Virus record (IMG/VR): IMGVR_UViG_3300020048_000043
Location: 62,001-122,295 of that record
DNA length: 60,295 bases
Direction: 5' to 3' (one strand)
Origin: an uncultured virus (IMG/VR IMGVR_UViG_3300020048_000043)
Lineage: Duplodnaviria > Heunggongvirae > Uroviricota > Caudoviricetes
Shown here: positions 3,564-41,200 of the stretch, piece after piece
How the letters are laid out: each line of letters opens with the position of its first letter
How positions within the stretch are numbered: position 1 is the stretch's first letter
Notes under the pieces: generated by a model
Database searches by the model: none
The model's input: the letters and a program-made list of their open reading frames with translations, nothing else
Told to the model about the DNA's origin: nothing
Position numbers and translations under genes: made by a program

Positions 3564-6696
<3,133 letters not shown>

Positions 6697-11421: not shown

Positions 11422-14415
11422 TTAATCTCCTGCGAAATATTCATTTATCAACGATGATCTATTATTCCATACATCATTAACTGTTATTTGTCCATCTGCT
11501 CTAATAACTTGAATAATTTTTCTATGCTTTATATCTAACGCACAAACAGCAAGTTCGTTAGGTTCCATTTCTCCTAATCCTTTATATCTAAATATTTGTA
11601 CATTTGTTTTTCTTATTTCTTCTACTTTACTTTCATCATATATTGGTGTAAATTGTTTTTTATTATAATATCCAAACAATGGTGTTTCTATTACATGTAA
11701 ATATCCTTCATCTATAAGAGAAGGTAAACAATAATCAAACATAGATATTAGAAGGGCTGCTATATGCCTTCCATCCGGATCAAAGTCACAATTTTGTACT
11801 ACAATTGCATTTTGTTTTACAATTCCTTCTTTTTCTACATCATATACTATAGCATAATTATGATATTTATCTACAGTAATATTATAGACCGGAATCAATA
11901 CATCTAATTTTTTTCGTTCAACGCATGTCACTTTATGATTATATGTTTTTGCATATTCAATCATTTCATCAATAGAGTCATAATAATTCAATACATTTTC
12001 CCATTTCGGATCTGATCTTGATGTTCTATATTCTTCATAATATGGACCAATAACAGGTTCATTATTATCAAGAATCTTTTTAACTATTCTAGCAATACTA
12101 TTTCTTGCTTTCTTTGTTTTATCATATGAAACACAAACTTTATAATCATTCAAATTGTATTTATCTTTATTTTGTATTGCTGTTTTTAAAATTTCGTCAT
12201 ATGAATCAAAATATTGTAACAAATTTTCATAAAAAGAAGTACCATTACTACGCCAATTATTAAAATTCGTTTCATTAAATTCAAGATTTTCAGATAATAG
12301 TTTACATACGCATTTTAATATTTTTCCTTTTTTTTGTAATATTTTAACATCTTCTCTTTGATTTAGTTGACGTGTAGATTCTTTATTTTTTTCTGAATAA
12401 TTATATTCTGTTAAATGTATACATATATTTTGATATGTATCTGTTTCACGGTGTAAATAAGATATTCTTTCACCATGTATATTTAATGCGTTATACGCAT
12501 TAATGTGATATGAATTATGATCTTTTTGTGTTAACCATTCTAAATTACAAAGTTCATTGTTTAAAGTATTTGAATCTTTGTGATGACAAACTAAATTTGA
12601 AAACAATTCATCCGTTTTATTTGCCATTATTCTATGTGTTCTATAATATTTAGATTCATCTACATTTCGTTTCATGTATTCATATTGTAATCCGTGTTGT
12701 TGAAACATATGAAAATATAATGGCATTAAACTCATACCTGATTGTAAATCTTTAGCTTCTATTTTAGTTCCATCTCTTAAAATAAATTTATGTGTAGGTG
12801 TAACTTTTACTACATGATCATTATCGATAGTAACATATATTAATTCATCTACATAACTTGTAATTCTTGGAGCATATGCTTTACCAGGAACATAATTACC
12901 ATGATCATCAATAGAGTATACCCAATAATCTCTACCAGGTTTTTCTTTTTCCATTTGAACAAGTTCTTCAAATGTTTTATCTTGACCATTTAACATTTTT
13001 ACCTTTGTATCACCTGTAAAACACATAACATTGATTTTTCCATATCTTATATCTGATAAATCTGTTGTGAATGGTTTTACATTGATAGCTGTAAAAATAT
13101 TCATCAGTGTTTTACTATTCAAAATCTTTTTCTTATCCGCATTGAGTACATTCAATACTTTTCCACGTAAGGGGAGTAACGCATGTATATTTATATCACG
13201 TGCTAGTTGTAACGTACCACCAGCAGATTGTCCTTCTAATAGAAATAGTTCTCTTTCATCCACATTAGCAGAAGTACAATCTTTTAAATCTTCTACCATA
13301 ACAACGTTTCTACTTTTACGTGTTTTGGTTTGTTTCTTTGTGTCCAATTCTATTCTATATTCTTGAGCTAATGCTAACCAATTCATAACAAACGTTTGAT
13401 CATTTTCTAAAAACTTTATAATACTGTTTTTATTAATGATATGTTCTATATCACTTTCTCTCATGTTCAATGAATACTTTGTTTGTCCAGCAAAAGCAGG
13501 ATTTGTTATTTTTAAAATTGTCATAAGACGTCCACCTATTAAGACATCTTCTTTATTAACATGTAACTTTGCTTTGACTGCTTTTTCATAAAGATAATCT
13601 TTCACAATTGTTTCAATCATCTTTTGATGTGTTCCTTGATCTACGTTCAATGTATTTATAACACCTTTGAATTTCTTATATTTACTACCTTCATTTGTGT
13701 AACCTACATACAAACGTAACTCATCTTTTTTATTTTGAATTGTAGTTGTAAGATACTTAGAACATTCTGTTTCAAATTCTTTCACTATTGTATTTGTAAT
13801 TTTTTTAGATATGACATTGTTGTCTTTCATAACGATAAGAAGCATTTCTATTTTATCTTCATTATCATATACAAGAATAGATTTAAGTCTATTCTCTATA
13901 AGTTCTGGATCTATGAAAACTGTTTCAAAATGTTTTTCATTTGGAGTAAAAGATACACTTGTACTGAATTGTTTTTTATCTACATCTTTTTTAGTTACAT
14001 CTGTTCCATTGAATATGTAATGTCTATGTTGATTACCATTCTTTGTAATTATTTCAAATGAAGTACTTAACGCATTTACAATTACAAGACCTTCACCATG
14101 TAACCCACTTCTATGTTGGTAAAGATCATTATCAAACTTACCTCCAGTGAATAATTTTGTTGCTATTACAACTGGAGCATCTTCTTTAAAATCCGGTGAT
14201 TTGATTGGAATACCTCTACCTTTATCTACTACTGTATATTTATTATTATCCAAATCCATTATGACAGCTAAAAAGTTACTATTGCCTGTAAGACATTCAT
14301 CTGCTGAATTATCTATTAACTCATACAATAGATGCGTTGGATTTTCTGTAGAGCCCATGTAATTCCCTGGACATAGTTGTATGTGTTCAAATTCAGATAA
14401 GCCTCTTATAGCCAT
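11422..14415 (-). CDS. type IIA topoisomerase ATPase/TOPRIM subunit (GyrB/ParE-like) with intein; about 586 aa after splicing
   Basis: ELIDNSADE, DKGRGIP, GGKF, GLHGEG, LLEGQSAGG, PLRGKVLN, DFDPDGRHI, RYKGLGEM. Confidence 0.95.
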   Translation of the reverse strand: MAIRGLSEFEHIQLCPGNYMGSTENPTHLLYELIDNSADECLTGNSNFLAVIMDLDNNKYTVVDKGRGIPIKSPDFKEDAPVVIATKLFTGGKFDNDLYQHRSGLHGEGLVIVNALSTSFEIITKNGNQHRHYIFNGTDVTKKDVDKKQFSTSVSFTPNEKHFETVFIDPELIENRLKSILVYDNEDKIEMLLIVMKDNNVISKKITNTIVKEFETECSKYLTTTIQNKKDELRLYVGYTNEGSKYKKFKGVINTLNVDQGTHQKMIETIVKDYLYEKAVKAKLHVNKEDVLIGGRLMTILKITNPAFAGQTKYSLNMRESDIEHIINKNSIIKFLENDQTFVMNWLALAQEYRIELDTKKQTKTRKSRNVVMVEDLKDCTSANVDERELFLLEGQSAGGTLQLARDINIHALLPLRGKVLNVLNADKKKILNSKTLMNIFTAINVKPFTTDLSDIRYGKINVMCFTGDTKVKMLNGQDKTFEELVQMEKEKPGRDYWVYSIDDHGNYVPGKAYAPRITSYVDELIYVTIDNDHVVKVTPTHKFILRDGTKIEAKDLQSGMSLMPLYFHMFQQHGLQYEYMKRNVDESKYYRTHRIMANKTDELFSNLVCHHKDSNTLNNELCNLEWLTQKDHNSYHINAYNALNIHGERISYLHRETDTYQNICIHLTEYNYSEKNKESTRQLNQREDVKILQKKGKILKCVCKLLSENLEFNETNFNNWRSNGTSFYENLLQYFDSYDEILKTAIQNKDKYNLNDYKVCVSYDKTKKARNSIARIVKKILDNNEPVIGPYYEEYRTSRSDPKWENVLNYYDSIDEMIEYAKTYNHKVTCVERKKLDVLIPVYNITVDKYHNYAIVYDVEKEGIVKQNAIVVQNCDFDPDGRHIAALLISMFDYCLPSLIDEGYLHVIETPLFGYYNKKQFTPIYDESKVEEIRKTNVQIFRYKGLGEMEPNELAVCALDIKHRKIIQVIRADGQITVNDVWNNRSSLINEYFAGD
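11791..13023 (-). mobile_element. intein (411 aa) with HNH endonuclease
   Basis: block A CFTGDTKV, block B VTPTHKF, block F VYNITVDKYHNY, end VQN followed by Cys+1; internal HR..HHKDSNTLNN..NLEWL..H. Confidence 0.93.
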
Positions 14416-14476: not shown

Positions 14477-14896
14477 TTAGTACGGACTGTAACAAGCGTA
14501 ATTTGTTTCTGTTTCTTTTACAATGACTTTTATAAGTGTACAATATTCATTTGACATTTCTTCCTCTAATAGATTGAAGAAGAATTGTGCTATATTTTCT
14601 GCTGTAGGATTGAATTGAATGTTTATTACACCTGGTATATCTTTAAATCGTTCATGCCATTTAGGAGGAATGATTGTAGCATGATCAAACTTATTTTCTA
14701 CAATACGTTTGAACACTTCTTTGATGTGTGTGTAGTCTGCCAGCATCCCGTCACTATTAAGTTTATCTCCACCCAATTCTACTACGACTGTATATGTATG
14801 GCCATGTAGATTACAACACTTCTTTGTATATGCGTCTTCAAGTATGTGACCCATAGCAACGCTGAATGACTTTTGAACTGTATATTGAAAAGACAT
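14477..14896 (-). CDS. queD: 6-carboxytetrahydropterin synthase
   Basis: GH...CCNLHGHTY, GMLADY, FDH, NPTAENIA, VKET. Confidence 0.92.
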   Translation of the reverse strand: MSFQYTVQKSFSVAMGHILEDAYTKKCCNLHGHTYTVVVELGGDKLNSDGMLADYTHIKEVFKRIVENKFDHATIIPPKWHERFKDIPGVINIQFNPTAENIAQFFFNLLEEEMSNEYCTLIKVIVKETETNYACYSPY

Positions 14897-14997
14897 TTTA
14901 TTCCTCCTTCATATCTTAAAATCCAGTCCGGTGCCCTGGCCCGACGCTCCGCATTATTTGTTCTACTTCTTTTTAAACATTCAGAAAAAAGATATGA

Positions 14998-15249
14998 TTA
15001 TCTTAAAACGACATCTGCTCGAAGCAAGAAACAATTATCTATTCTTGTTAATTTAGACCAACCTAGATATTTCATTTCTCGGATAAAAAATTCAATATCT
15101 CTTTCAATTGAAAAATCAATATCAACAGCATATATTAAATTAGATCTATCTGTTTCCATTAATGGGATATGCTGTAAATATTCTATAGCATATTTATCTT
15201 CTATGACAATATGTGGATTATTTACAGTTCTATTTTTTGGATCCAACAT
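14998..15249 (-). CDS. hypothetical protein; possibly the 3' part of a gene split by the TnpB element
   Basis: frame stays open back to the tnpB stop; no clear RBS. Confidence 0.5.
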   Translation of the reverse strand: MLDPKNRTVNNPHIVIEDKYAIEYLQHIPLMETDRSNLIYAVDIDFSIERDIEFFIREMKYLGWSKLTRIDNCFLLRADVVLR

Positions 15250-15288
15250 TTCTTTAACTTTATCTGATATTTTAGTAGTTATAGTTAC

Positions 15289-16416
15289 TCAACCAATAGT
15301 ATTTAATAGTATTGGTCCAGCTTCGTAACCAGCACCATATGGTCCGGTGAAGAATCGATTTAAGATATTTTTGCCCGCATTGATGTCTGCGTTGTCACGA
15401 TGGCCACACGATTGACACAAAAATATCTCGCCGTTCCGATTCTTCTTATCGACATAGCCGCATTGACGACACGTTATGCTGGTGTTCTCAGGCCAAACTC
15501 GTCTAAAGGAAACACGGTTTTCTTCACAGAGCATTTCCAACCTGGTCAGCCAATAACGCACGTTCCAACTGCCGATAACAGAGCGTATATTTTTACTCAA
15601 GCGCCCTTTGAGTTTGGTACCATGTGTAATGTCTTTTAATCGCTCAACTACTATCAAGCTGATATCAGACATCACAATCCTTTTCGCGTTTAAAGCTATA
15701 TAATCTTTCAACGTCTTAATGGCTCTCGCTTTACCCTTCGAACCTTTCTTACGACGTCTGACTATATTGATTAAGGTTTTCAATTCTAAACCAATTTGCT
15801 CGCCTGTTGATAACGAAGCTAATGCGTTGACTCCAGTGTCAATACCAACACAATTTGTAATAGGTTTCTTTTCACCAGTTTGAATTTCAAATGTAACTTG
15901 AACACAATTACGGAATATGACAAATGATCCCATCAAACGACCGCGTGCGTTCCATTTGTGAAACATGCGATGAAGTTTAATAGGAATATCGATTTTAATT
16001 TTATCACCAATAGATCGTAAAGACAACCAACGGTCGAACGTTTTACTTTGCTTGGCTTCAGTGAATGAACAAATTGCTGTTGATAACGCCATTCGATTTC
16101 CATAATGCGTTGGTTTAACTGCCGCTACTTCGCGTTCCAATTCTTTGGAAGCAGCTTTCGCTTGTTCGATAGCCGCGTTTACCATGCTTAGGGCTTCGCG
16201 AGCAGCCTGTTGTTTTAATCTTTGTGTGAAATAAGGGTGTTGAACACGATCTAGCAATTCTTTCTTAAGGTCTGCTTCTCTACATCGTTCAACCCAGAAG
16301 ATATCTATATATGAATTCACTACATGTTTATATTCGTCCATAATAGCGTGGATTTGTTGAAATTTTTTCTTCGTAGCTGAAGTGAAATGTAACTTCACAG
16401 ACCTTAAGATTTTCAT
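15289..16416 (-). CDS. tnpB: TnpB RNA-guided endonuclease (IS200/IS605/IS607 type)
   Basis: RuvC I VGIDTGV, RuvC II VVERL, Zn ribbon TSITCRQCG..CQSCG, RuvC III NADINAGKNI; visibly higher GC than its flanks. Confidence 0.93.
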   Translation of the reverse strand: MKILRSVKLHFTSATKKKFQQIHAIMDEYKHVVNSYIDIFWVERCREADLKKELLDRVQHPYFTQRLKQQAAREALSMVNAAIEQAKAASKELEREVAAVKPTHYGNRMALSTAICSFTEAKQSKTFDRWLSLRSIGDKIKIDIPIKLHRMFHKWNARGRLMGSFVIFRNCVQVTFEIQTGEKKPITNCVGIDTGVNALASLSTGEQIGLELKTLINIVRRRKKGSKGKARAIKTLKDYIALNAKRIVMSDISLIVVERLKDITHGTKLKGRLSKNIRSVIGSWNVRYWLTRLEMLCEENRVSFRRVWPENTSITCRQCGYVDKKNRNGEIFLCQSCGHRDNADINAGKNILNRFFTGPYGAGYEAGPILLNTIG

Positions 16417-16438
16417 TGTGTTTCACCACCTTTAACAT

Positions 16439-16467
16439 ATTATATATTAAAAACAATATTTCGTCAA
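16439..16467 (-). promoter_or_regulatory. sigma70/sigmaA-type promoter of tnpB
   Basis: TTGACG-N17-TATAAT just upstream of the RBS. Confidence 0.7.
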
Positions 16468-16578
16468 TTGTTTATTAATTGTAATGAAATACTATTGACT
16501 AACATGAAATACTATGAAAACGGTCAATAAAAGCTATACATTTTGTTTCAAATCTCAATTTTAACAACACCCTTTCAT

Positions 16579-16608
16579 AAAAAATGACACTCAAAAAAGA
16601 GTGTCATT
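16579..16608 (-). terminator. intrinsic terminator closing the coiled-coil gene/ncRNA unit
   Basis: AATGACACTC/GAGTGTCATT stem followed by a T run. Confidence 0.75.
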
Positions 16609-16618
16609 ATAAAAATTA

Positions 16619-16883
16619 TACGGATTATATAGCAGCCGGTCGTGTAATCAACGCTGGAAAGATAAGCAAACACGGGAAGCCGGATTTTTAAGACATCCTT
16701 CAAGAAACCTTACACATTAGACTTAAGACCCAGTTATCGTCTGGGCCGGACTTATACTTGAACCTTAAACCTTAAGCCTTGAAAATATGTAATATCCACC
16801 CAAGGATTTTTTATAAGTAATATCAATAACCCATGATATTAACGGGTCTTTCCTATTCTGTTCTTTACACTATACAATCCGTA
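16619..16883 (-). ncRNA. putative structured ncRNA (265 nt) with 7-nt TYAAG repeats
   Basis: 15-bp closing stem with G-U pairs only on the minus strand; internal hairpins; no ORF. Confidence 0.65.
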
Positions 16884-16922
16884 TGATACACCTTTATTTA
16901 ATTGTCAATGTTCTTATCTTCT

Positions 16923-17444
16923 TTATTCTTCTTCTGTTAATAGAAGTGGTGTTGTTGCGTTTACTACTTCCATTTTACCATCAATGGCGTCAAAGAAATC
17001 CATCCACTTACGTAGCTGATTATTCTTTTCTTCTTCATCGTAGTAACGCACCACTTGAATATCTACATTTTCTGGAACACGTGCTGAACGCATTTTAGCA
17101 TCTGCTTCACGTGTATTCAACGCATTGAATGTATTTGTAATAGGTAAATTCATTCTTCTTCGGATAGCAAGAAGTTCTGTTAAATTGAACTCACCAATAT
17201 CTGGAAAAAGTATAGTCGTGTTAATGTTTGTTCTTTCAATAGCAGTCTTAAGCTGTAAATATCTTTTGAAAAGATCCATGTTAGCTTGAATAAGACTACT
17301 AACTTCTTGACGCTGTTTCTTTTCACTACCAAATACTTCTTTTTCTGTTGAGAGACCACTAGAATATTTTGCTACTTTTTCTGTATTATCTCTCATACGT
17401 TTTTCGAGGAGTTTAAGTTCTTTCATGGCTTCAATTAGCATCAT
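16923..17444 (-). CDS. helical coiled-coil protein (DIP1984/DUF6847-like by recollection)
   Basis: LIEAMKELKLLEKRM..LKTAIERTN..LTELLAIRR..IDGKMEVVNATT pattern; own promoter and RBS. Confidence 0.6.
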   Translation of the reverse strand: MMLIEAMKELKLLEKRMRDNTEKVAKYSSGLSTEKEVFGSEKKQRQEVSSLIQANMDLFKRYLQLKTAIERTNINTTILFPDIGEFNLTELLAIRRRMNLPITNTFNALNTREADAKMRSARVPENVDIQVVRYYDEEEKNNQLRKWMDFFDAIDGKMEVVNATTPLLLTEEE

Positions 17445-17480
17445 GATATTGTTTATCCCCTTTCAATTATTCTAATATGT

Positions 17481-17509
17481 ATTGTATATTACATAGAAAG
17501 AAAAGTCAA
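17481..17509 (-). promoter_or_regulatory. sigma70/sigmaA-type promoter
   Basis: TTGACT-N17-TACAAT about 37 nt upstream of the ATG at 17444. Confidence 0.7.
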
Positions 17510-17519
17510 TAGATGAATT

Positions 17520-17705
17520 TTAAGAAAAATGTCTTTCTTTTAGTTTGACAATATATTCTTTTATTTTTATCATCCATGGTATTCGATTTGAAAACAGTCC
17601 TATAAGAAATCCAATAACAGCAAATGTAATAAAACCTAAAATAGGTGTTGTTACAAAAATTACACCAACCATTGCGGATACAATAATAATAAAAATCATT
17701 CTCAT
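17520..17705 (-). CDS. small membrane protein
   Basis: two hydrophobic helices; likely start MRMIF right after the upstream stop. Confidence 0.6.
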   Translation of the reverse strand: MRMIFIIIVSAMVGVIFVTTPILGFITFAVIGFLIGLFSNRIPWMIKIKEYIVKLKERHFS

Positions 17706-17706
17706 A

Positions 17707-17958
17707 TTACTCATCATCATATTCATCCTCCTCGTTTTCAATATCATCAAATTCACTTTCATTGATTTCTTTAATTGGATCTACATATTGTAGTAAAACA
17801 TTCAATGCTTCTGTATATGATTCACTCTTGGTTGCTTTTTCTACCATTTCTTTTGCTTCTTCTTTCATATTATGCTTAATAAGCGCACGCCTAGCAATAG
17901 CCATTAGATTAAAAATATTACCATCTGTGCCTAAAAGTTCTACTTTTGGTTTACTCAA
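17707..17958 (-). CDS. conserved small phage/ICE protein
   Basis: GTDGNIFNLM..A.RAL..SESYTEAL motif; acidic tail. Confidence 0.7.
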   Translation of the reverse strand: MSKPKVELLGTDGNIFNLMAIARRALIKHNMKEEAKEMVEKATKSESYTEALNVLLQYVDPIKEINESEFDDIENEEDEYDDE

Positions 17959-28401: not shown

Positions 28402-28478
28402 TGGTGGACCCATTTGGAATTGAACCAAAAACCTGTCCCTTATAAGGAGACTGCTCTTACCGATTGAGCTATGAGTCC
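28402..28478 (-). tRNA. tRNA-Ile(UAU)
   Basis: cloverleaf; anticodon arm GTCTC-CTTATAA-GGGAC; T loop TTCAATT; encoded CCA. Confidence 0.9.
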
Positions 28479-28489
28479 ATATTTTATTT

Positions 28490-28566
28490 TGGTGCCCCTG
28501 GACAGATTTGAACTGTCACTTTATTGTTTTTGGGACAACTTCCTCTACCGATTGGGATACAGGGGC
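28490..28566 (-). tRNA. atypical tRNA, anticodon CAA (Leu), short variable arm, C33
   Basis: acceptor stem GCCCCTG/CAGGGGC; arm GTTGT-CCCAAAA-ACAAT; T arm GACAG-TTCAAAT-CTGTC; CCA. Confidence 0.75.
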
Positions 28567-28610
28567 AGAAAAAAGGAAATCTACAATGACTTCCTAAATT
28601 TGTTTTAAAT

Positions 28611-28697
28611 TGGTGCCGGACACGGGACTCGAACCCGCAAGCCCCACTGGGCGGGGGATTTTAAATCCCCAGAGTTTACCAATTTCTCCAATCCGGC
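28611..28697 (-). tRNA. tRNA-Leu(UAA)
   Basis: arm GGGGA-TTTAAAA-TCCCC; long variable arm; GGTTCGAGTCC; CCA. Confidence 0.93.
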
Positions 28698-38237: not shown

Positions 38238-41200
38238 TCACAGATCTAATAAATTATCTAGATCTGAAGGTATCAACTGTTGATCTGTATTATTCAATAT
38301 TGCGCTATGTAAAGCATTAGATACATTTTCAAACGCAGCACCACGTTTCCAATTTTCTAACAATGCTACTTGTTTTAATGCTACTCGCAAAGGTCTATCT
38401 TTCATCCCACTTAATCTATATGGAAATTGTGGTCGTTTGGGATCTCTGCATAATTGAGATACTACTAATTCCAAAGACCAAAAAGGTATTATTGTTTGAG
38501 TAGCAAATAATTCATACATCTTAATAGCTAAGATATCATTAAACATTAATCTACTATTAAGAAGTTTACTAATTTCTTGTATAACACCTGTTATGGATTG
38601 TGAACTATTTTTCATACTTCCAAAAATTACATTTTCTTCTATATATACAATATGTTCAAAACCATCTATTACTAAACTATCTCTTGTTGGAACTACAATA
38701 GTGAAATTATAATTTAATACAAAATCAAATGTTTCATTTTCTGTTTCAATAGTAAATATTTGTACAATATATTCGTTCGCACTTCTTCCACGAATATCAT
38801 CTTCATTAAAAATAATTTTTAATTTTTGTTTAGACATTATTTCATTACCATCTTGTGTAACATAATTCTTTAAATTTGAATCTGGCTCTATGAAATTCTT
38901 AATAGTCCCAGCTCCACCAGTATGATAGCAATAGGTAAGTATTTGATATTATCTCTAACTTTTCCCCTGCTCCACACCGTGCTTGCGACTTTCACCGCAC
39001 ACGGCGTTCCATCGATATAATTATACTATCGACTAAGGGCTATTCCTCAACTCTCATTACAAGAGTTTCATAGGTCATTCCCTCGCTCTCACTATAGAAT
39101 AAATTATCTATAGCTTTCCACGTTCCAATCGACTTAGCTTTACATATACCCTTAGGTGCTTGCTCTACATTAAATAAATTATATCTTCATTGTTAGATAT
39201 CTCGACTTTCTTAACATCCAGCATACTCATCGATATTTATTTAATGCTTCATAACAAGTTCGTGTTCCTCACCATAGGTATTTTATAGCTCCCCAGTATA
39301 TTCTACTGACTTTACCTAGCTTCATACGTTATTAACGCATGTAGGAGTATTAGGAAGATTGTTTTAGCTAACATGATAGCCTCATTCCAATCTTCAGTCG
39401 ATTAGTTGTAACTCGTATATACGAGTCCTCTCTTTTCGTATTTTTATACTTATAGAGAAACGTGTCGCACGAATGTCTGCATGGTCATCTGGGATCCTCT
39501 TTCACCTATTATTTGTGCTGCTACCATTCCTATATTTGTAGAACGTATTTTAGTAACAGCATCATCGCCTAAACATTTATGACAAATTTCTGGTGATGTA
39601 CAATACATAGGTGAACGAATTTGAATAGTTTTATCAATATATTCTTCTGGATTAATAATCATGGTTCCATTGGATAAATATCTAGTATTTAAACCTTTTG
39701 CTATATCTTTTGTTACTTTTAACTCGAAATAATTTTTTGTTCCACAATCTTTTGTTCTAGCACTCATTTTAACACTTACTGTTGCATAAGCTAATTGTCT
39801 TGCTAAATATCCAGATACAGCAGTCATTTGTGATCTATCTACAATACCCTTACGACCACCTATACCTACTGCCATAAATTCTGAAGGTTTTAATCCATCA
39901 CTTAAAGAAGAAACAACAGGTTTTTCAATAACAGAACCATCTACATCTTCTACAAACCCTTTTGCTACTATTTGTGTTTGTATATTTTCTGTTTTACCTC
40001 GTCCTCCACTATTTACTAAATCATAAATAATGGAATTACTTTGATTTAATGCTTCTAATACATCTTTAGTAATAGCACTAAGTTCTTTTGATGGGTTTTC
40101 TGCTTTGAATGCTTCTTCCTTACGTTTTTCAAATTCTTTAGGTAAAGCAAATTGAGAAATATCCATACTTTTACCTATTAATGTTGGAGCAATCATACAT
40201 ACTTTCATTGTTTCATTCATTTTTTCCATAACAATATTTGCTTCTTCTTTTTCTGCTAATTTTAAAAACAAATCTGTAACATCTTTTTTCTTATATTGTT
40301 TTTCTATAGGTAAACCAATTATTTCTTCTAATATTGCTCTACCTATTGTTATTTCTTTCTTTTTAAAATTAACCAATAACGTTGGATCTGAATATTTTAA
40401 TAATACTCTATGTAAATCTTGAATACTATACACAGCATCTTTTAAAACTTTTTCAGATTTTGGATTTGCTGTTAACATATAAAAACCGTATACAGCATCA
40501 TTTTTAAAAGTTAATGCTAAACTTGTTCCATTAGGACCCCAAATATTTTTATCCATCATCATCTTTTCTTTGGCTTCTTTTTGTGCTGCTTCCGTTAATG
40601 GTAAATATATTCCCATCTGATCGCCGTCAAACATCTATATTCAAGTGTATTCGCTAAATACACCTCGCCTATTTAGGCTGCTATACGTCACCGTATAGAT
40701 TAGACTATATCTTCACCTTCATTACTGAAGGGCTCCCCGTTTCCACTCGCTTGAGTGTACTCTACTCCGTCATATAACGTTTCGATAGTCGTTGAACTTT
40801 CTGTTCTTGGCCGAACTTATAGATTTTGTTTTATAACCAACAACAAATATTCTAAACAATTTTTAGATAAATATTCAGTATAAAATTTTTGTGTTTCATC
40901 TAATAATGTATATTCTTGAAATTGTAACAATAATTCACATTCTAAATTTATTATATCATGTGCGTTTCCTTTAAATGAATGATGTATAAAATTTTTTGCT
41001 TTTAATTCTGTTAAACGTCTTTTGAAATCTGAACTACTTCCTAATTTTATTTTATCATCAAATTCAATCACATAAAGATATCTATCATCTTCTTTATTTG
41101 TTCTTTTCAAAAGATTATCTCTATTACGAATACGATCTGAATATTCACTATTAAAACCTTTTGATGTTTTATTTAATGCTCTAGCTTTAGATAATTCTGA

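What the first reader, a model, noticed from the sequence alone, without database searches (positions are those of the whole stretch)
16579..17509. Self-contained unit: coiled-coil protein + 265-nt structured RNA with 7-nt repeats (candidate undescribed ribonucleoprotein system)
Seen on the minus strand: promoter (17509-17481), 173-aa helical gene, non-coding 16883-16619, terminator. The RNA is closed by a 15-bp stem (UACGGAUUGUAUAGU/GCUAUAUAAUCCGUA). It has a possible 5' pseudoknot (GACCCG/UGGGUU with AAUAUCA/UGAUAUU), a central tract UCAAGGC UUAAGGU UUAAGGU UCAAGUA UAAG, a hairpin GGCCCAG/CUGGGUC, further UAAG units, and a 3' CCGG+CGUGU/ACACG+CCGG domain. Inference: periodic single-stranded AAG units could be binding sites for an oligomer or filament of the adjacent protein, as a scaffold, sponge or type III TA-like pair. 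I cannot match it to a named RNA family.
Basis: partly seen in the sequence, partly recalled or inferred. Interest (0 to 1): 0.85.

Follow-up and report, generated by a model that had tools for sequence, protein, structure and literature searches.

The report
New phage RNA with partner protein
A 265-base, intricately folded RNA and the small helical protein gene beside it form a conserved pair in many uncultured phages, often among or even enclosing tRNA genes, and it matches no described RNA family.

Summary
The 265-nt RNA (window 16883→16619, minus strand) scores 145 bits against a covariance model built from relatives. Homologous RNAs lie beside the homologous 170-aa protein gene in 78 of 80 viral loci and 13 of 14 MAG loci, always on the gene's strand, usually downstream and in 10 cases upstream.

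Covariation supports these elements:
- the 15-bp closing stem
- a hairpin
- the 3' hairpin

Two single-stranded tracts carry U-N-A-A-G-N-Y units with a 7-nt period.

Relatives sit in phage tRNA islands. At one fixed site they carry a hairpin, a whole tRNA, or a circularly permuted tRNA-like domain.

The protein has the DIP1984/DUF6847 fold (function unknown) and is predicted to dimerise.

There is no Rfam hit, and I found nothing in print. The neighbouring TnpB is unrelated to the RNA.

Best reading: a new phage RNA–protein module tied to tRNA biology. Protein–RNA binding and the function are inferred, not shown. The closest analogues are GOLLD and ROOL.

The parts
17481..17509 (-). sigma-70-like promoter of the unit
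   Evidence: TTGACT-17-TACAAT, 10 of 12 matches. This is a consensus match only.
16923..17444 (-). 173-aa DIP1984/DUF6847-fold helical protein gene
   Evidence: ORF. 35 homologues. 1359 cluster representatives at E<=1e-3. AF2 pLDDT 92.6. Best PDB match 3kdq. Sub-threshold DIP1984_fam and DUF6847 HMM hits.
16619..16883 (-). 265-nt structured non-coding RNA (new family)
   Evidence: R1 covariance model hit at 16618-16883, 145 bits. Covariation statistics. No ORF of 60 aa or more. No Rfam hit.
16869..16883 (-). P1 closing stem, 5' strand
   Evidence: Pairs with 16619-16633. 14 pairs; 12 to 14 of them show changes on both sides.
16864..16868 (-). conserved joint GUAAA after P1
   Evidence: Invariant or nearly invariant columns in A2. 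Present in 28 of 30 rows of A4 by eye.
16847..16853 (-). long-range pseudoknot, 5' strand (GGAAAGA)
   Evidence: Pairs with 16656-16662. A homologous pairing is found in 30 of 30 relatives; cognate score 16.5 against 12.8 for non-cognate.
16818..16848 (-). H-type pseudoknot PK1 (GACCCG/UGGGUU and UAAUAUCA/UGAUAUUA)
   Evidence: Per-sequence search: mean score 24.6 against 18.9 for shuffled sequences. Stem 2 differs in sequence but stays complementary in most of the 30 relatives.
16794..16807 (-). hairpin P3 (AUCC/GGAU), at the variable insertion site
   Evidence: All 5 pairs show changes on both sides. In relatives this site holds a tRNA or a permuted tRNA-like domain.
16750..16783 (-). tract 1: five UNAAG units, spacing 7,7,7,6
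16728..16746 (-). hairpin GCCCAG/CUGGGU (stem of PK2 in relatives)
   Evidence: All 5 pairs show changes on both sides. The second PK2 stem and a GUAAA-type loop seen in relatives are reduced in the window.
16696..16727 (-). tract 2: further AAG units (UUAAGU, GUAAGG, UGAAGG)
   Evidence: Less regular in the window than in relatives.
16636..16683 (-). 3' hairpin (CCGG/CCGG and CGUGU/ACACG); its loop holds the 3' strand of the long-range pseudoknot
   Evidence: 10 pairs; 7 to 9 of them show changes on both sides.
16619..16633 (-). P1 closing stem, 3' strand, preceded by the conserved GGCU
16583..16608 (-). intrinsic terminator-like hairpin with U tract
   Evidence: 10-bp stem followed by a T run.

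Best explanation
Window 16578-17509 (minus strand) is a single unit of an uncultured large phage: promoter, a 173-aa DIP1984-fold protein gene, a 265-nt non-coding RNA, and a terminator.

SHOWN
- The RNA belongs to a large RNA family that I could not find described. This family is almost always encoded right beside this protein family.
- It folds into a closed core made of:
  - a 15-bp P1 stem
  - a conserved GUAAA joint
  - an H-type pseudoknot (PK1)
  - a long-range pseudoknot between the purine run just 5' of PK1 and the loop of the 3' hairpin
- The core displays two single-stranded tracts of 4-5 U-N-A-A-G-N-Y units with a 7-nt period.
- Relatives lie in phage tRNA islands. At one fixed site they carry a hairpin, a whole tRNA gene, or a circularly permuted tRNA-like domain.

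INFERRED
- The protein is predicted to be a symmetric dimer. Its most conserved polar residues probably lie at the two free poles.
- The protein binds this RNA to form a ribonucleoprotein, most likely on the periodic tracts and/or the conserved core.
- The particle acts on the phage's tRNA supply. It could be a carrier or maturation platform for tRNAs, or a decoy for host factors that recognise tRNA. GOLLD and ROOL RNAs are suspected of similar roles.
For: Linkage from the protein side
- R1 hits all 18 loci L005-L022.
- R2 hits 60 of the 62 loci L023-L084. Together that is 78 of 80 viral loci.
- 13 of 14 MAG loci are hit.
- Every hit is on the gene's strand. Ten have the RNA upstream of the gene rather than downstream. 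Adjacency therefore survives changes of order.

Linkage from the RNA side
- 160 loci were picked by RNA-like patterns alone. The only strong R2 hits were L105, L240 and L267, plus a weak one in L155.
- Those four are exactly the loci that encode the protein.

Structure
- 41 sequences: 86.1% of cells paired against 57.0% shuffled. 38 of 39 pairs have a change on both sides. Covariation is 0.425 against 0.126, with 0 of 500 shuffles as high. Slid controls give 0.036-0.088.
- 30 sequences, of which 10 are MAG loci not used in the seed: 87.5% against 63.9%, and 0.574 against 0.200.
- An independent MAFFT/RNAalifold run also recovers P1 and the 3' hairpin.
- PK1 is supported, and the long-range pseudoknot.

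Periodic tracts
- Spacing is 7 nt in 140 cases, 8 nt in 53 and 6 nt in 6.
- U occurs at position -2 in 74% of units.

tRNA link
- 49 of 80 loci have tRNA genes within 3 kb, all on the same strand.
- In at least 11 loci a tRNA lies between the paired P1 strands.
- L061, L069 and L080 hold permuted cloverleaves.

Protein
- The homodimer model scores ipSAE 0.75 against a best control of 0.00.
- The tool's calibration: this mark was reached by 20 of 30 proteins solved as pairs and by 1 of 23 solved as single chains.
- The runs share at least 94% of their contacts, and the partner pLDDT is at least 84.
- Four copies were given, which differs from the calibration. The result may also echo the solved relative 3kdq.

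Expression
- Contigs in RNA libraries from four studies cover the RNA and bridge the gene-RNA junction.
- In one of them the RNA part shows 1 difference in 249 nt, against 16 in 399 nt of the gene.
Against: - There is no direct evidence that the protein binds the RNA.
- The protein has no known RNA-binding domain.
- It is not basic: 27 K+R against 29 D+E.
- L077 keeps the protein and the RNA core but lacks the AAG tracts. The tracts therefore cannot be the only binding site, if they are one at all.
- The window's own RNA has no tRNA inside it or next to it. The nearest tRNAs are about 11 kb away.
- The RNA-library evidence consists of assembled contigs. These cannot show transcript ends, strand or level, and do not exclude contaminating DNA.
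- The covariation counts on A3 and A4 lean towards the model the alignments were fitted to.
- The function of the closest analogues, GOLLD and ROOL, is itself unknown.
Confidence: 0.45

Rival explanations
1. RNA-only machine. The RNA works on its own, for example by self-assembling as GOLLD and ROOL do. The protein is only a co-expressed neighbour, or acts on another target.
For: GOLLD and ROOL are phage RNAs near tRNA islands with no known protein partner, and tRNAs sometimes sit in the GOLLD linker (passages read). The protein is not basic and has no RNA-binding domain. The RNA has a rich tertiary design with three pseudoknots.
Against: The gene and the RNA stay adjacent in 91 of 94 loci across proteins as low as 26% identical, and in either order. 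No confident RNA without the gene turned up in 160 pattern-picked loci.
Confidence: 0.2
2. Cis-regulatory element. The RNA is a UTR through which the protein, or a ligand or tRNA, controls expression or stability of the protein's own mRNA.
For: The RNA is always on the same strand and directly abuts the gene. In 10 loci it sits just upstream of the start codon, as a leader would. RNA-library contigs bridge the gene and the RNA.
Against: In most loci it is downstream of the stop codon and is closed by its own stem. In the window a terminator follows it. An element of 265-400 nt with three pseudoknots, and in relatives a tRNA inside it, is far more than a small gene would need for autoregulation. 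The same structure occurs in both the 5' and the 3' position.
Confidence: 0.12
3. Sponge or antidote. The periodic UNAAG tracts titrate a host RNA-binding protein or RNase, or neutralise a toxic partner protein as in a type III toxin-antitoxin pair.
For: Eight to nine exposed repeats of one short motif resemble sponge RNAs and the triplet arrays bound by ring proteins (recalled: TRAP, HutP, CsrB). The module's neighbours vary, as they do for accessory or counter-defence genes.
Against: There is no tandem array of long repeats and no PADLOC match. The protein fold is not that of the known type III toxins (recalled). L077 lacks the tracts yet keeps the rest. A sponge does not need the conserved core.
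Confidence: 0.08
4. tRNA-directed ribozyme. The conserved core is a much reduced RNase P-like or other catalytic RNA, and the protein is its subunit.
For: The core has a closing stem plus two crossing helices just inside it. It also has purine-rich joints and a bulged U in the helix next to P1 in the tRNA-bearing clade. From memory this recalls the P1/P2/P4 layout and the CR-I/CR-V strands of RNase P. The RNA is linked to tRNAs, and in relatives it holds a pre-tRNA in cis.
Against: No RNase P model, and no other ribozyme model, of Rfam matches. This holds even at E<=10 on short stretches of the window, of L055 and of the minimal L077. The resemblance is short and recalled, not measured. The bulged-U helix is not kept in the window's own clade.
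Confidence: 0.06
5. Part of the neighbouring TnpB element, as its guide RNA or a transposon end.
For: A TnpB gene (15289-16416, minus strand) starts about 200 nt after the RNA.
Against: The closest TnpB relative (68% identical, L004) has an IS607-type serine recombinase gene upstream and no such RNA. The RNA follows the 173-aa gene in 91 of 94 loci. In 15 of those loci the neighbours were scanned and none was a transposase. A terminator and a separate promoter-like site lie between the RNA and tnpB.
Confidence: 0.02

Closest known systems
GOLLD and ROOL RNAs (large ornate phage/prophage RNAs)
   Same: [quoted passage not shown] Here tRNAs cluster around the module, and in relatives they sit inside it.
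   Different: No match to their Rfam models. This RNA is much smaller (265-400 nt), and its structure is unrelated to theirs. It has a dedicated neighbouring protein gene, whereas no protein partner is known for GOLLD or ROOL. It also has periodic UNAAG tracts.
tmRNA with SmpB, including circularly permuted two-piece tmRNA genes
   Same: A small protein gene lies next to an RNA closed by a terminal stem, with pseudoknots strung along single-stranded stretches. Three relatives have a permuted tRNA-like domain in which the T arm and acceptor 3' strand come before the acceptor 5' strand. From memory, this is the gene order of permuted tmRNA genes.
   Different: Neither ARAGORN nor Rfam calls a tmRNA here. 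The 7-nt period leaves no conserved reading frame in the tracts. The window's RNA has no tRNA-like domain. The protein is a helical bundle rather than an SmpB fold (the SmpB fold is recalled).
Periodic-triplet RNA targets of ring proteins (TRAP, HutP; recalled)
   Same: Short trinucleotide cores repeated at a fixed spacing in single-stranded RNA. Here it is AAG every 7 nt, 4-5 times, in two tracts.
   Different: The protein shows no sequence or fold relation to those proteins. The tracts are part of a large folded RNA and not a leader. Binding has not been tested.
Type III toxin-antitoxin systems (ToxIN and relatives)
   Same: A roughly 170-aa protein gene co-transcribed with a repeat-bearing non-coding RNA on mobile DNA.
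   Different: The units are 7 nt, not about 36 nt, and are embedded in one folded RNA. There is no PADLOC match. Toxicity is unknown.
DIP1984 / DUF6847 ('septicolysin') proteins, PDB 3kdq
   Same: The fold is the same. Foldseek gives E 2.2e-3, probability 1.00, TM 0.55-0.62. VIA-align gives Z 12.1, rmsd 7.2 A, 150 residues aligned. Atlas neighbours carry DUF6847.
   Different: HMM scores fall far below the curated cut-offs: 18.5 against 70 bits and 15.6 against 27 bits. The phage clade has its own conserved N- and C-terminal motifs. 3kdq itself is deposited as functionally unknown. In the search listing, 'septicolysin' appeared only as an annotation label. No RNA partner has been described for the bacterial family.

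Membership tests
Any Rfam 15 family (including GOLLD, ROOL, tmRNA, RNase P, ribozymes, riboswitches) | Match to the family's covariance model at its gathering score | tested here: not met
   No hit on the RNA at gathering score in the window. No credible hit at E<=10 on 15000-17600, on eight relatives' loci at E<=1, on L055 3740-4100 apart from its tRNA, or on L077 2870-3000.
GOLLD/ROOL kind (phage ornate RNAs of tRNA islands) | Phage-encoded and located near tRNA genes, with tRNAs sometimes inside the RNA | tested here: met
   49 of 80 related loci have same-strand tRNA genes within 3 kb. A tRNA lies between the P1 strands in at least 11 loci. In the window itself the nearest tRNAs are about 11 kb away. 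The feature is as stated in the passages.
tmRNA | tRNA-like acceptor/T-arm domain plus a tag reading frame, detectable by ARAGORN or Rfam | tested here: not met
   No tmRNA is called on the RNA by Rfam. ARAGORN calls none on the homologous RNAs of 94 loci; its only tmRNA, in L027, lies elsewhere. The 7-nt period rules out a conserved frame.
RNase P RNA | Covariance-model match; P4 pseudoknot with the conserved CR-I and CR-V strands | tested here: inconclusive
   No RNase P model matched at E<=10. A resemblance in topology and short motifs is recalled from memory and was not measured. It is absent from the window's own clade.
RNase P RNA | Cleaves pre-tRNA 5' leaders | not testable with these tools
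   Needs a biochemical assay.
Type III toxin-antitoxin | Tandem array of about 30-40-nt RNA repeats next to an endoribonuclease toxin gene | tested here: not met
   TRF finds only a 7-nt period with 3.4 copies. The RNA is one closed fold. No PADLOC model matches the protein.
TnpB guide RNA / IS200-IS605-IS607 end | The RNA travels with tnpB | tested here: not met
   The TnpB relative L004 has a serine recombinase gene upstream and no such RNA. The RNA travels with the 173-aa gene instead.
DIP1984 / DUF6847 protein family | HMM score above the curated cut-off | tested here: not met
   NF038048 scores 18.5 bits against a cut-off of 70. PF20935 scores 15.6 bits against 27. Some relatives score 27-30 bits.
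DIP1984 / DUF6847 protein family | Same three-dimensional fold as PDB 3kdq | tested here: met
   Foldseek probability 1.00, E 2.2e-3. VIA-align Z 12.1 over 150 residues, clear of the next row at Z 8.7. The comparison uses a predicted model, not a solved structure.

The most novel reading that the evidence does not exclude
The RNA core, with the DIP1984-fold dimer as its protein subunit, is a phage-built machine that acts directly on tRNA-shaped molecules. One possibility is a drastically reduced RNase P-like catalyst. Another is a two-piece, tRNA-domain-bearing particle that engages the translation apparatus as tmRNA does. In either case the embedded or permuted tRNA modules of relatives would be its built-in substrate or handle, and the UNAAG tracts its protein- or ribosome-binding arms.
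Probability: 0.08. Interest if true: 0.97.

Novelty: categorically new. Interest (0 to 1): 0.86.

Why it matters
Phage tRNA islands already hold two enigmatic giant RNAs, GOLLD and ROOL, whose function is still unknown after more than a decade. This is a third, smaller class in the same niche. It comes with something the other two lack: a dedicated, conserved partner protein gene. That gives an experimental handle through pull-downs, co-structures and genetics.

It also gives a first functional lead for the DIP1984/DUF6847 fold, whose bacterial members have a crystal structure but no known role. The family is large (1359 representatives at 50% identity).

The fixed insertion site accepts a hairpin, a whole tRNA, or a permuted tRNA-like domain. 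Natural permuted tRNA-like modules are rare. Their presence suggests that the tRNA shape itself is used by the particle.

Tried and rejected
Searches that found nothing
- GenBank phages: no DNA match to the unit or the RNA. No tblastn match with the window protein or the L039 protein. No cultured phage carrying the module was found.
- Genome contigs returned only MAG contigs.
- The single-protein scan of viral contigs found nothing. The alignment-based scan worked.
- PDB sequence search with the protein profile: no hit at E<=10.
- PADLOC: no credible hit.
- Literature: four searches found no description of this RNA or of an RNA partner for DIP1984-like proteins.
- Earlier findings of this scan: nothing. 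One search was a malformed query.

Uninformative scans
Only 2 of 80 loci in each encoded the protein. They served only as a small RNA-side control.

Catalogue that could not be checked
- Fremin et al. 2023 (PMC10690425) list 10,006 candidate phage RNAs. The passages I read do not describe this one. The alignment archives could not be searched: files 1, 2 and 4 were not read. A partial overlap with that catalogue cannot be excluded.

Ideas rejected or left open
- RNase P: see the rivals. Not supported by any model.
- Column-wise pair counting of the pseudoknot stems failed because of register shifts in the alignment. It was replaced by per-sequence searches.
- Protein-RNA co-variation: L018 and L019 have ACG/AUG units instead of AAG and differ at one conserved residue (D57S). 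That is too little to interpret.

RNA libraries
- No contig lay on 16331-16591 or 17375-17800. Three contigs stop at 16634-16637, just short of the P1 3' strand. No DNA run was laid alongside, so these gaps and ends prove nothing.

Fold search
- Apart from 3kdq, only generic helical hairpins were returned.
Full report
**What is at the coordinates**

On the minus strand the window reads, in order:
- a sigma-70-like promoter at 17509-17481 (10 of 12 matches)
- a 173-aa ORF at 17444-16923
- 39 nt of spacer
- a 265-nt stretch without a long ORF at 16883-16619
- a strong terminator-like hairpin at 16608-16583

The 265 nt fold with z = -2.65, and 0 of 200 shuffles fold as well. AAG-N4-AAG-N4-AAG-N4-AAG occurs once in the 60-kb window against 0.02 expected, and TRF reports a 7-nt period there.

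The window is part of a 122-kb IMG/VR virus record that is estimated to be 44% complete.

**The downstream gene is a red herring**

The next gene (15289-16416, minus strand) is a TnpB, with Cas12f1-like TNB domain and transposase PHROG matches. It has its own promoter-like site. Its closest relative, 68% identical, is preceded by an IS607-type serine recombinase gene and not by this RNA. The RNA is therefore not a TnpB guide RNA or a transposon end.

**The protein**

- It has 35 homologues in the word-indexed search.
- An exhaustive profile search gives 1359 cluster representatives at E<=1e-3, 773 at E<=1e-10 and 201 at E<=1e-30.
- Pfam and NCBIfam give only sub-threshold hits, to DUF6847 (15.6 against 27 bits) and DIP1984_fam (18.5 against 70 bits).
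- PHROGs places it in phrog_1491, which carries the label 'tail fiber protein'. Nothing in the gene neighbourhoods supports that label.
- The AF2 model is confident (pLDDT 92.6) and almost all helical, with one beta hairpin.
- Its only clear structural relative is 3kdq, the C. diphtheriae DIP1984 protein of unknown function. Foldseek gives probability 1.00 and E 2.2e-3. VIA-align gives Z 12.1 over 150 residues, with the next row at Z 8.7. The protein atlas agrees.
- Four copies fold as symmetric dimers: ipSAE 0.75, best control 0.00. The tool's calibration is 20 of 30 true pairs against 1 of 23 single chains. At least 94% of contacts are shared between runs, and the partner pLDDT is at least 84. 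The set-up differs from the calibration, and the solved relative may be remembered.
- The most conserved residues are K2, E5, K8, T72, N73, E159, N162, A163 and T165. They lie mostly outside the predicted interface, at the chain ends. I infer from the secondary structure that the chain ends meet.
- The protein is not basic: 27 K+R against 29 D+E.

**The RNA is conserved with the protein**

An alignment-based scan fetched 80 viral loci that encode relatives. A plain nhmmer search with the window RNA already hit the stretch just downstream of the gene, on the gene's strand, in several loci. Iteration widened this.

A covariance model from 13 full-length RNAs (A2 and R1) gave these results:
- It finds the window RNA at 16618-16883 (145 bits).
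- It gives 41 hits at E<=1 across 81 sources, all on the gene's strand.
- It hits 11 of 14 MAG loci that were not used to build it.

A second model (A5 and R2) was built from the 3' halves of the more distant clade. It hits 60 of the 62 loci L023-L084.

Together, 78 of 80 viral loci and 13 of 14 MAG loci carry the RNA. The exceptions are:
- two contigs that end right after the gene (L084, L338)
- L077, which by eye has a roughly 110-nt core-only version without AAG tracts

In ten loci the RNA lies immediately upstream of the gene instead of downstream.

From the RNA side, I looked at 160 loci picked by RNA-like patterns regardless of the protein. The only strong R2 hits (L105, L240, L267, and weakly L155) are exactly the four loci that encode the protein. 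This sample is small.

**Structure**

RNAalifold on the MAFFT alignment recovers the closing stem, one stem of the central hairpin and the 3' hairpin. Twenty of its 27 pairs show compensatory changes.

On model-fitted alignments, which lean towards the model:

| Set | Paired cells | Shuffled | Pairs with changes on both sides | Covariation | Shuffled covariation | Slid controls |
|---|---|---|---|---|---|---|
| 41 sequences | 86.1% | 57.0% | 38 of 39 | 0.425 | 0.126 (0 of 500 as high) | 0.036-0.088 |
| 30 sequences | 87.5% | 63.9% | 34 of 39 | 0.574 | 0.200 | 0.085-0.133 |

A per-sequence search finds an H-type pseudoknot at the same place in nearly all 30 RNAs. Its second stem changes sequence freely while staying complementary (mean score 24.6 against 18.9 for shuffled sequences).

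A further long-range pseudoknot joins the 6-9 purine-rich bases just 5' of that pseudoknot to the loop of the 3' hairpin. It is found in 30 of 30 RNAs. In the window it is GGAAAGA/UCUUUCC. Cognate pairs score 16.5 against 12.8 for non-cognate pairs.

Relatives also have a second pseudoknot between the two tracts, followed by a GUAAA-like loop. The window keeps only one of its stems.

In the distant clade the closing stem is bipartite and covaries. Cognate pairs score 14.6 against 10.5 for non-cognate pairs, across 210-400 nt.

**The tracts**

Across 51 RNAs the unit is U-N-A-A-G-N-Y:
- Spacing is 7 nt in 140 cases, 8 nt in 53 and 6 nt in 6.
- The usual layout is one tract of 4-5 units and a second of 4.
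- Some lineages use ACG or AUG in place of AAG.

No covarying partner for the tracts turned up, so they are most simply read as exposed single strands. This is an inference.

**The tRNA connection**

ARAGORN finds same-strand tRNA genes within 3 kb of the module in 49 of 80 loci, often in arrays of 4-17.

- In the window's clade a tRNA often follows the RNA within 10-60 nt.
- In the distant clade a complete tRNA lies inside the RNA, between the 5' pseudoknot and tract 1. In at least 11 loci this is bracketed by the paired P1 strands. The anticodons vary.
- In L061, L069 and L080 that site holds a circularly permuted cloverleaf: T arm, acceptor 3' strand, a short capping loop, acceptor 5' strand, D arm. 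It joins the rest of the RNA through the anticodon stem.
- ARAGORN calls a tRNA across the origin when these segments are treated as circles, in 138, 138 and 75 of 196 windows respectively. It calls none when the loci are read as linear.
- In the window the same site is a plain hairpin (16807-16794), and the nearest tRNAs are about 11 kb away.

**Expression**

The stretch occurs in wastewater, sludge, digester and landfill metagenomes from 11 studies and in six RNA libraries. Contigs from four RNA libraries of four different studies cover the following:
- 16637-17319
- 16635-17321
- 16634-17064
- 16649-16999

Each covers the RNA and bridges the gene-RNA junction. Contigs cannot show transcript ends, strand or level, and do not exclude DNA. 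In one contig the RNA part differs from the window at 1 of 249 positions, against 16 of 399 in the gene part. The RNA is thus at least as constrained as the coding sequence.

**What it is most likely to be**

The tight linkage, independent of gene order, across proteins down to 26% identity argues that the RNA and the protein work together. The simplest form is a ribonucleoprotein. A dimer with two conserved polar poles, and an RNA that offers two tracts of repeated units plus a conserved core, fit each other. That fit is an inference and has not been tested. L077 shows that the tracts are dispensable in at least one lineage.

The genomic niche, and the repeated capture of tRNAs or tRNA-shaped domains at one structural site, point to tRNA biology. 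Passages of Kretsch et al. describe GOLLD and ROOL as phage RNAs 'often near tRNA islands', with tRNAs sometimes in the GOLLD linker. These are the nearest analogues, but they are unrelated in sequence and structure and have no known protein partner.

**What it is not**

- No Rfam 15 family matches at any threshold tried.
- It is not a tmRNA.
- It is not a type III TA array.
- It is not TnpB RNA.
- A resemblance of the core to the RNase P P1/P2/P4 layout is recalled from memory and is not supported by any model. I keep it only as a low-probability reading.

**Novelty**

Four literature searches and the read passages of a 10,006-candidate phage RNA catalogue show no description of this RNA. The catalogue's alignment archives could not be searched, so an unnamed partial prediction there cannot be excluded. 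No cultured phage or isolate genome with the module was found.

Noticed in passing
window 15289-16416 (-), promoter-like 16467-16439: Solo TnpB gene (375 aa, Cas12f1-like TNB domain) inserted just after the RNA's terminator. Its 68%-identical relative L004 sits behind an IS607-type serine recombinase gene. The region 14897-15288 downstream of it, where a guide RNA would be expected, was not examined.
   Followed up: partly
window 38925-39410 (-): Group II intron: Rfam hits to domains D1-D4 and to the catalytic domain, both above gathering score.
   Followed up: no
window 28405-28697 (-): Three tRNA genes in a row, about 11 kb from the module.
   Followed up: no
window 11422-14415 (-): A 997-aa ORF that by eye looks like a type II topoisomerase subunit interrupted by an intein-like insert. 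Not tested with any tool.
   Followed up: no
window 14477-14896 (-): QueD-like 6-pyruvoyl-tetrahydropterin synthase gene (Pfam PTPS, E 5.6e-29). It hints at a queuosine-type base-modification pathway in this phage.
   Followed up: no
L061 ~3621-3700; L069 ~2729-2812; L080 ~2742-2823: Circularly permuted tRNA-like cloverleaves inside the RNA, with the acceptor stem capped by a 5-7-nt loop. In L061 and L069 that loop starts with CC(A)-like letters. Whether they are cut open and charged is unknown.
   Followed up: partly
L077 ~2890-2990: Minimal version of the RNA, about 110 nt. It has the closing stem, the conserved A-rich joint and the 3' hairpin, but no AAG tracts. It lies just upstream of an otherwise typical copy of the protein gene.
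   Followed up: partly
L047, L054-L058, L060, L063 (embedded or adjacent tRNAs): Several module-associated tRNAs have unusual A34 anticodons (Ile-AAU, Asn-AUU, Ser-ACU, Pro-AGG). ARAGORN also reports odd 'tRNA-???' calls in L036, L044, L062, L070 and L079.
   Followed up: no
L027 2306-2661; L076 3918-3993: A phage-borne tmRNA gene lies about 350 nt upstream of the module in L027. A suppressor tRNA (anticodon UUA) lies just after the module in L076.
   Followed up: no
L018/L019 and the Synergistaceae-binned MAG loci L337-L345: Here the tract units read ACG or AUG in place of AAG, so the middle base of the core is not fixed across the family.
   Followed up: partly
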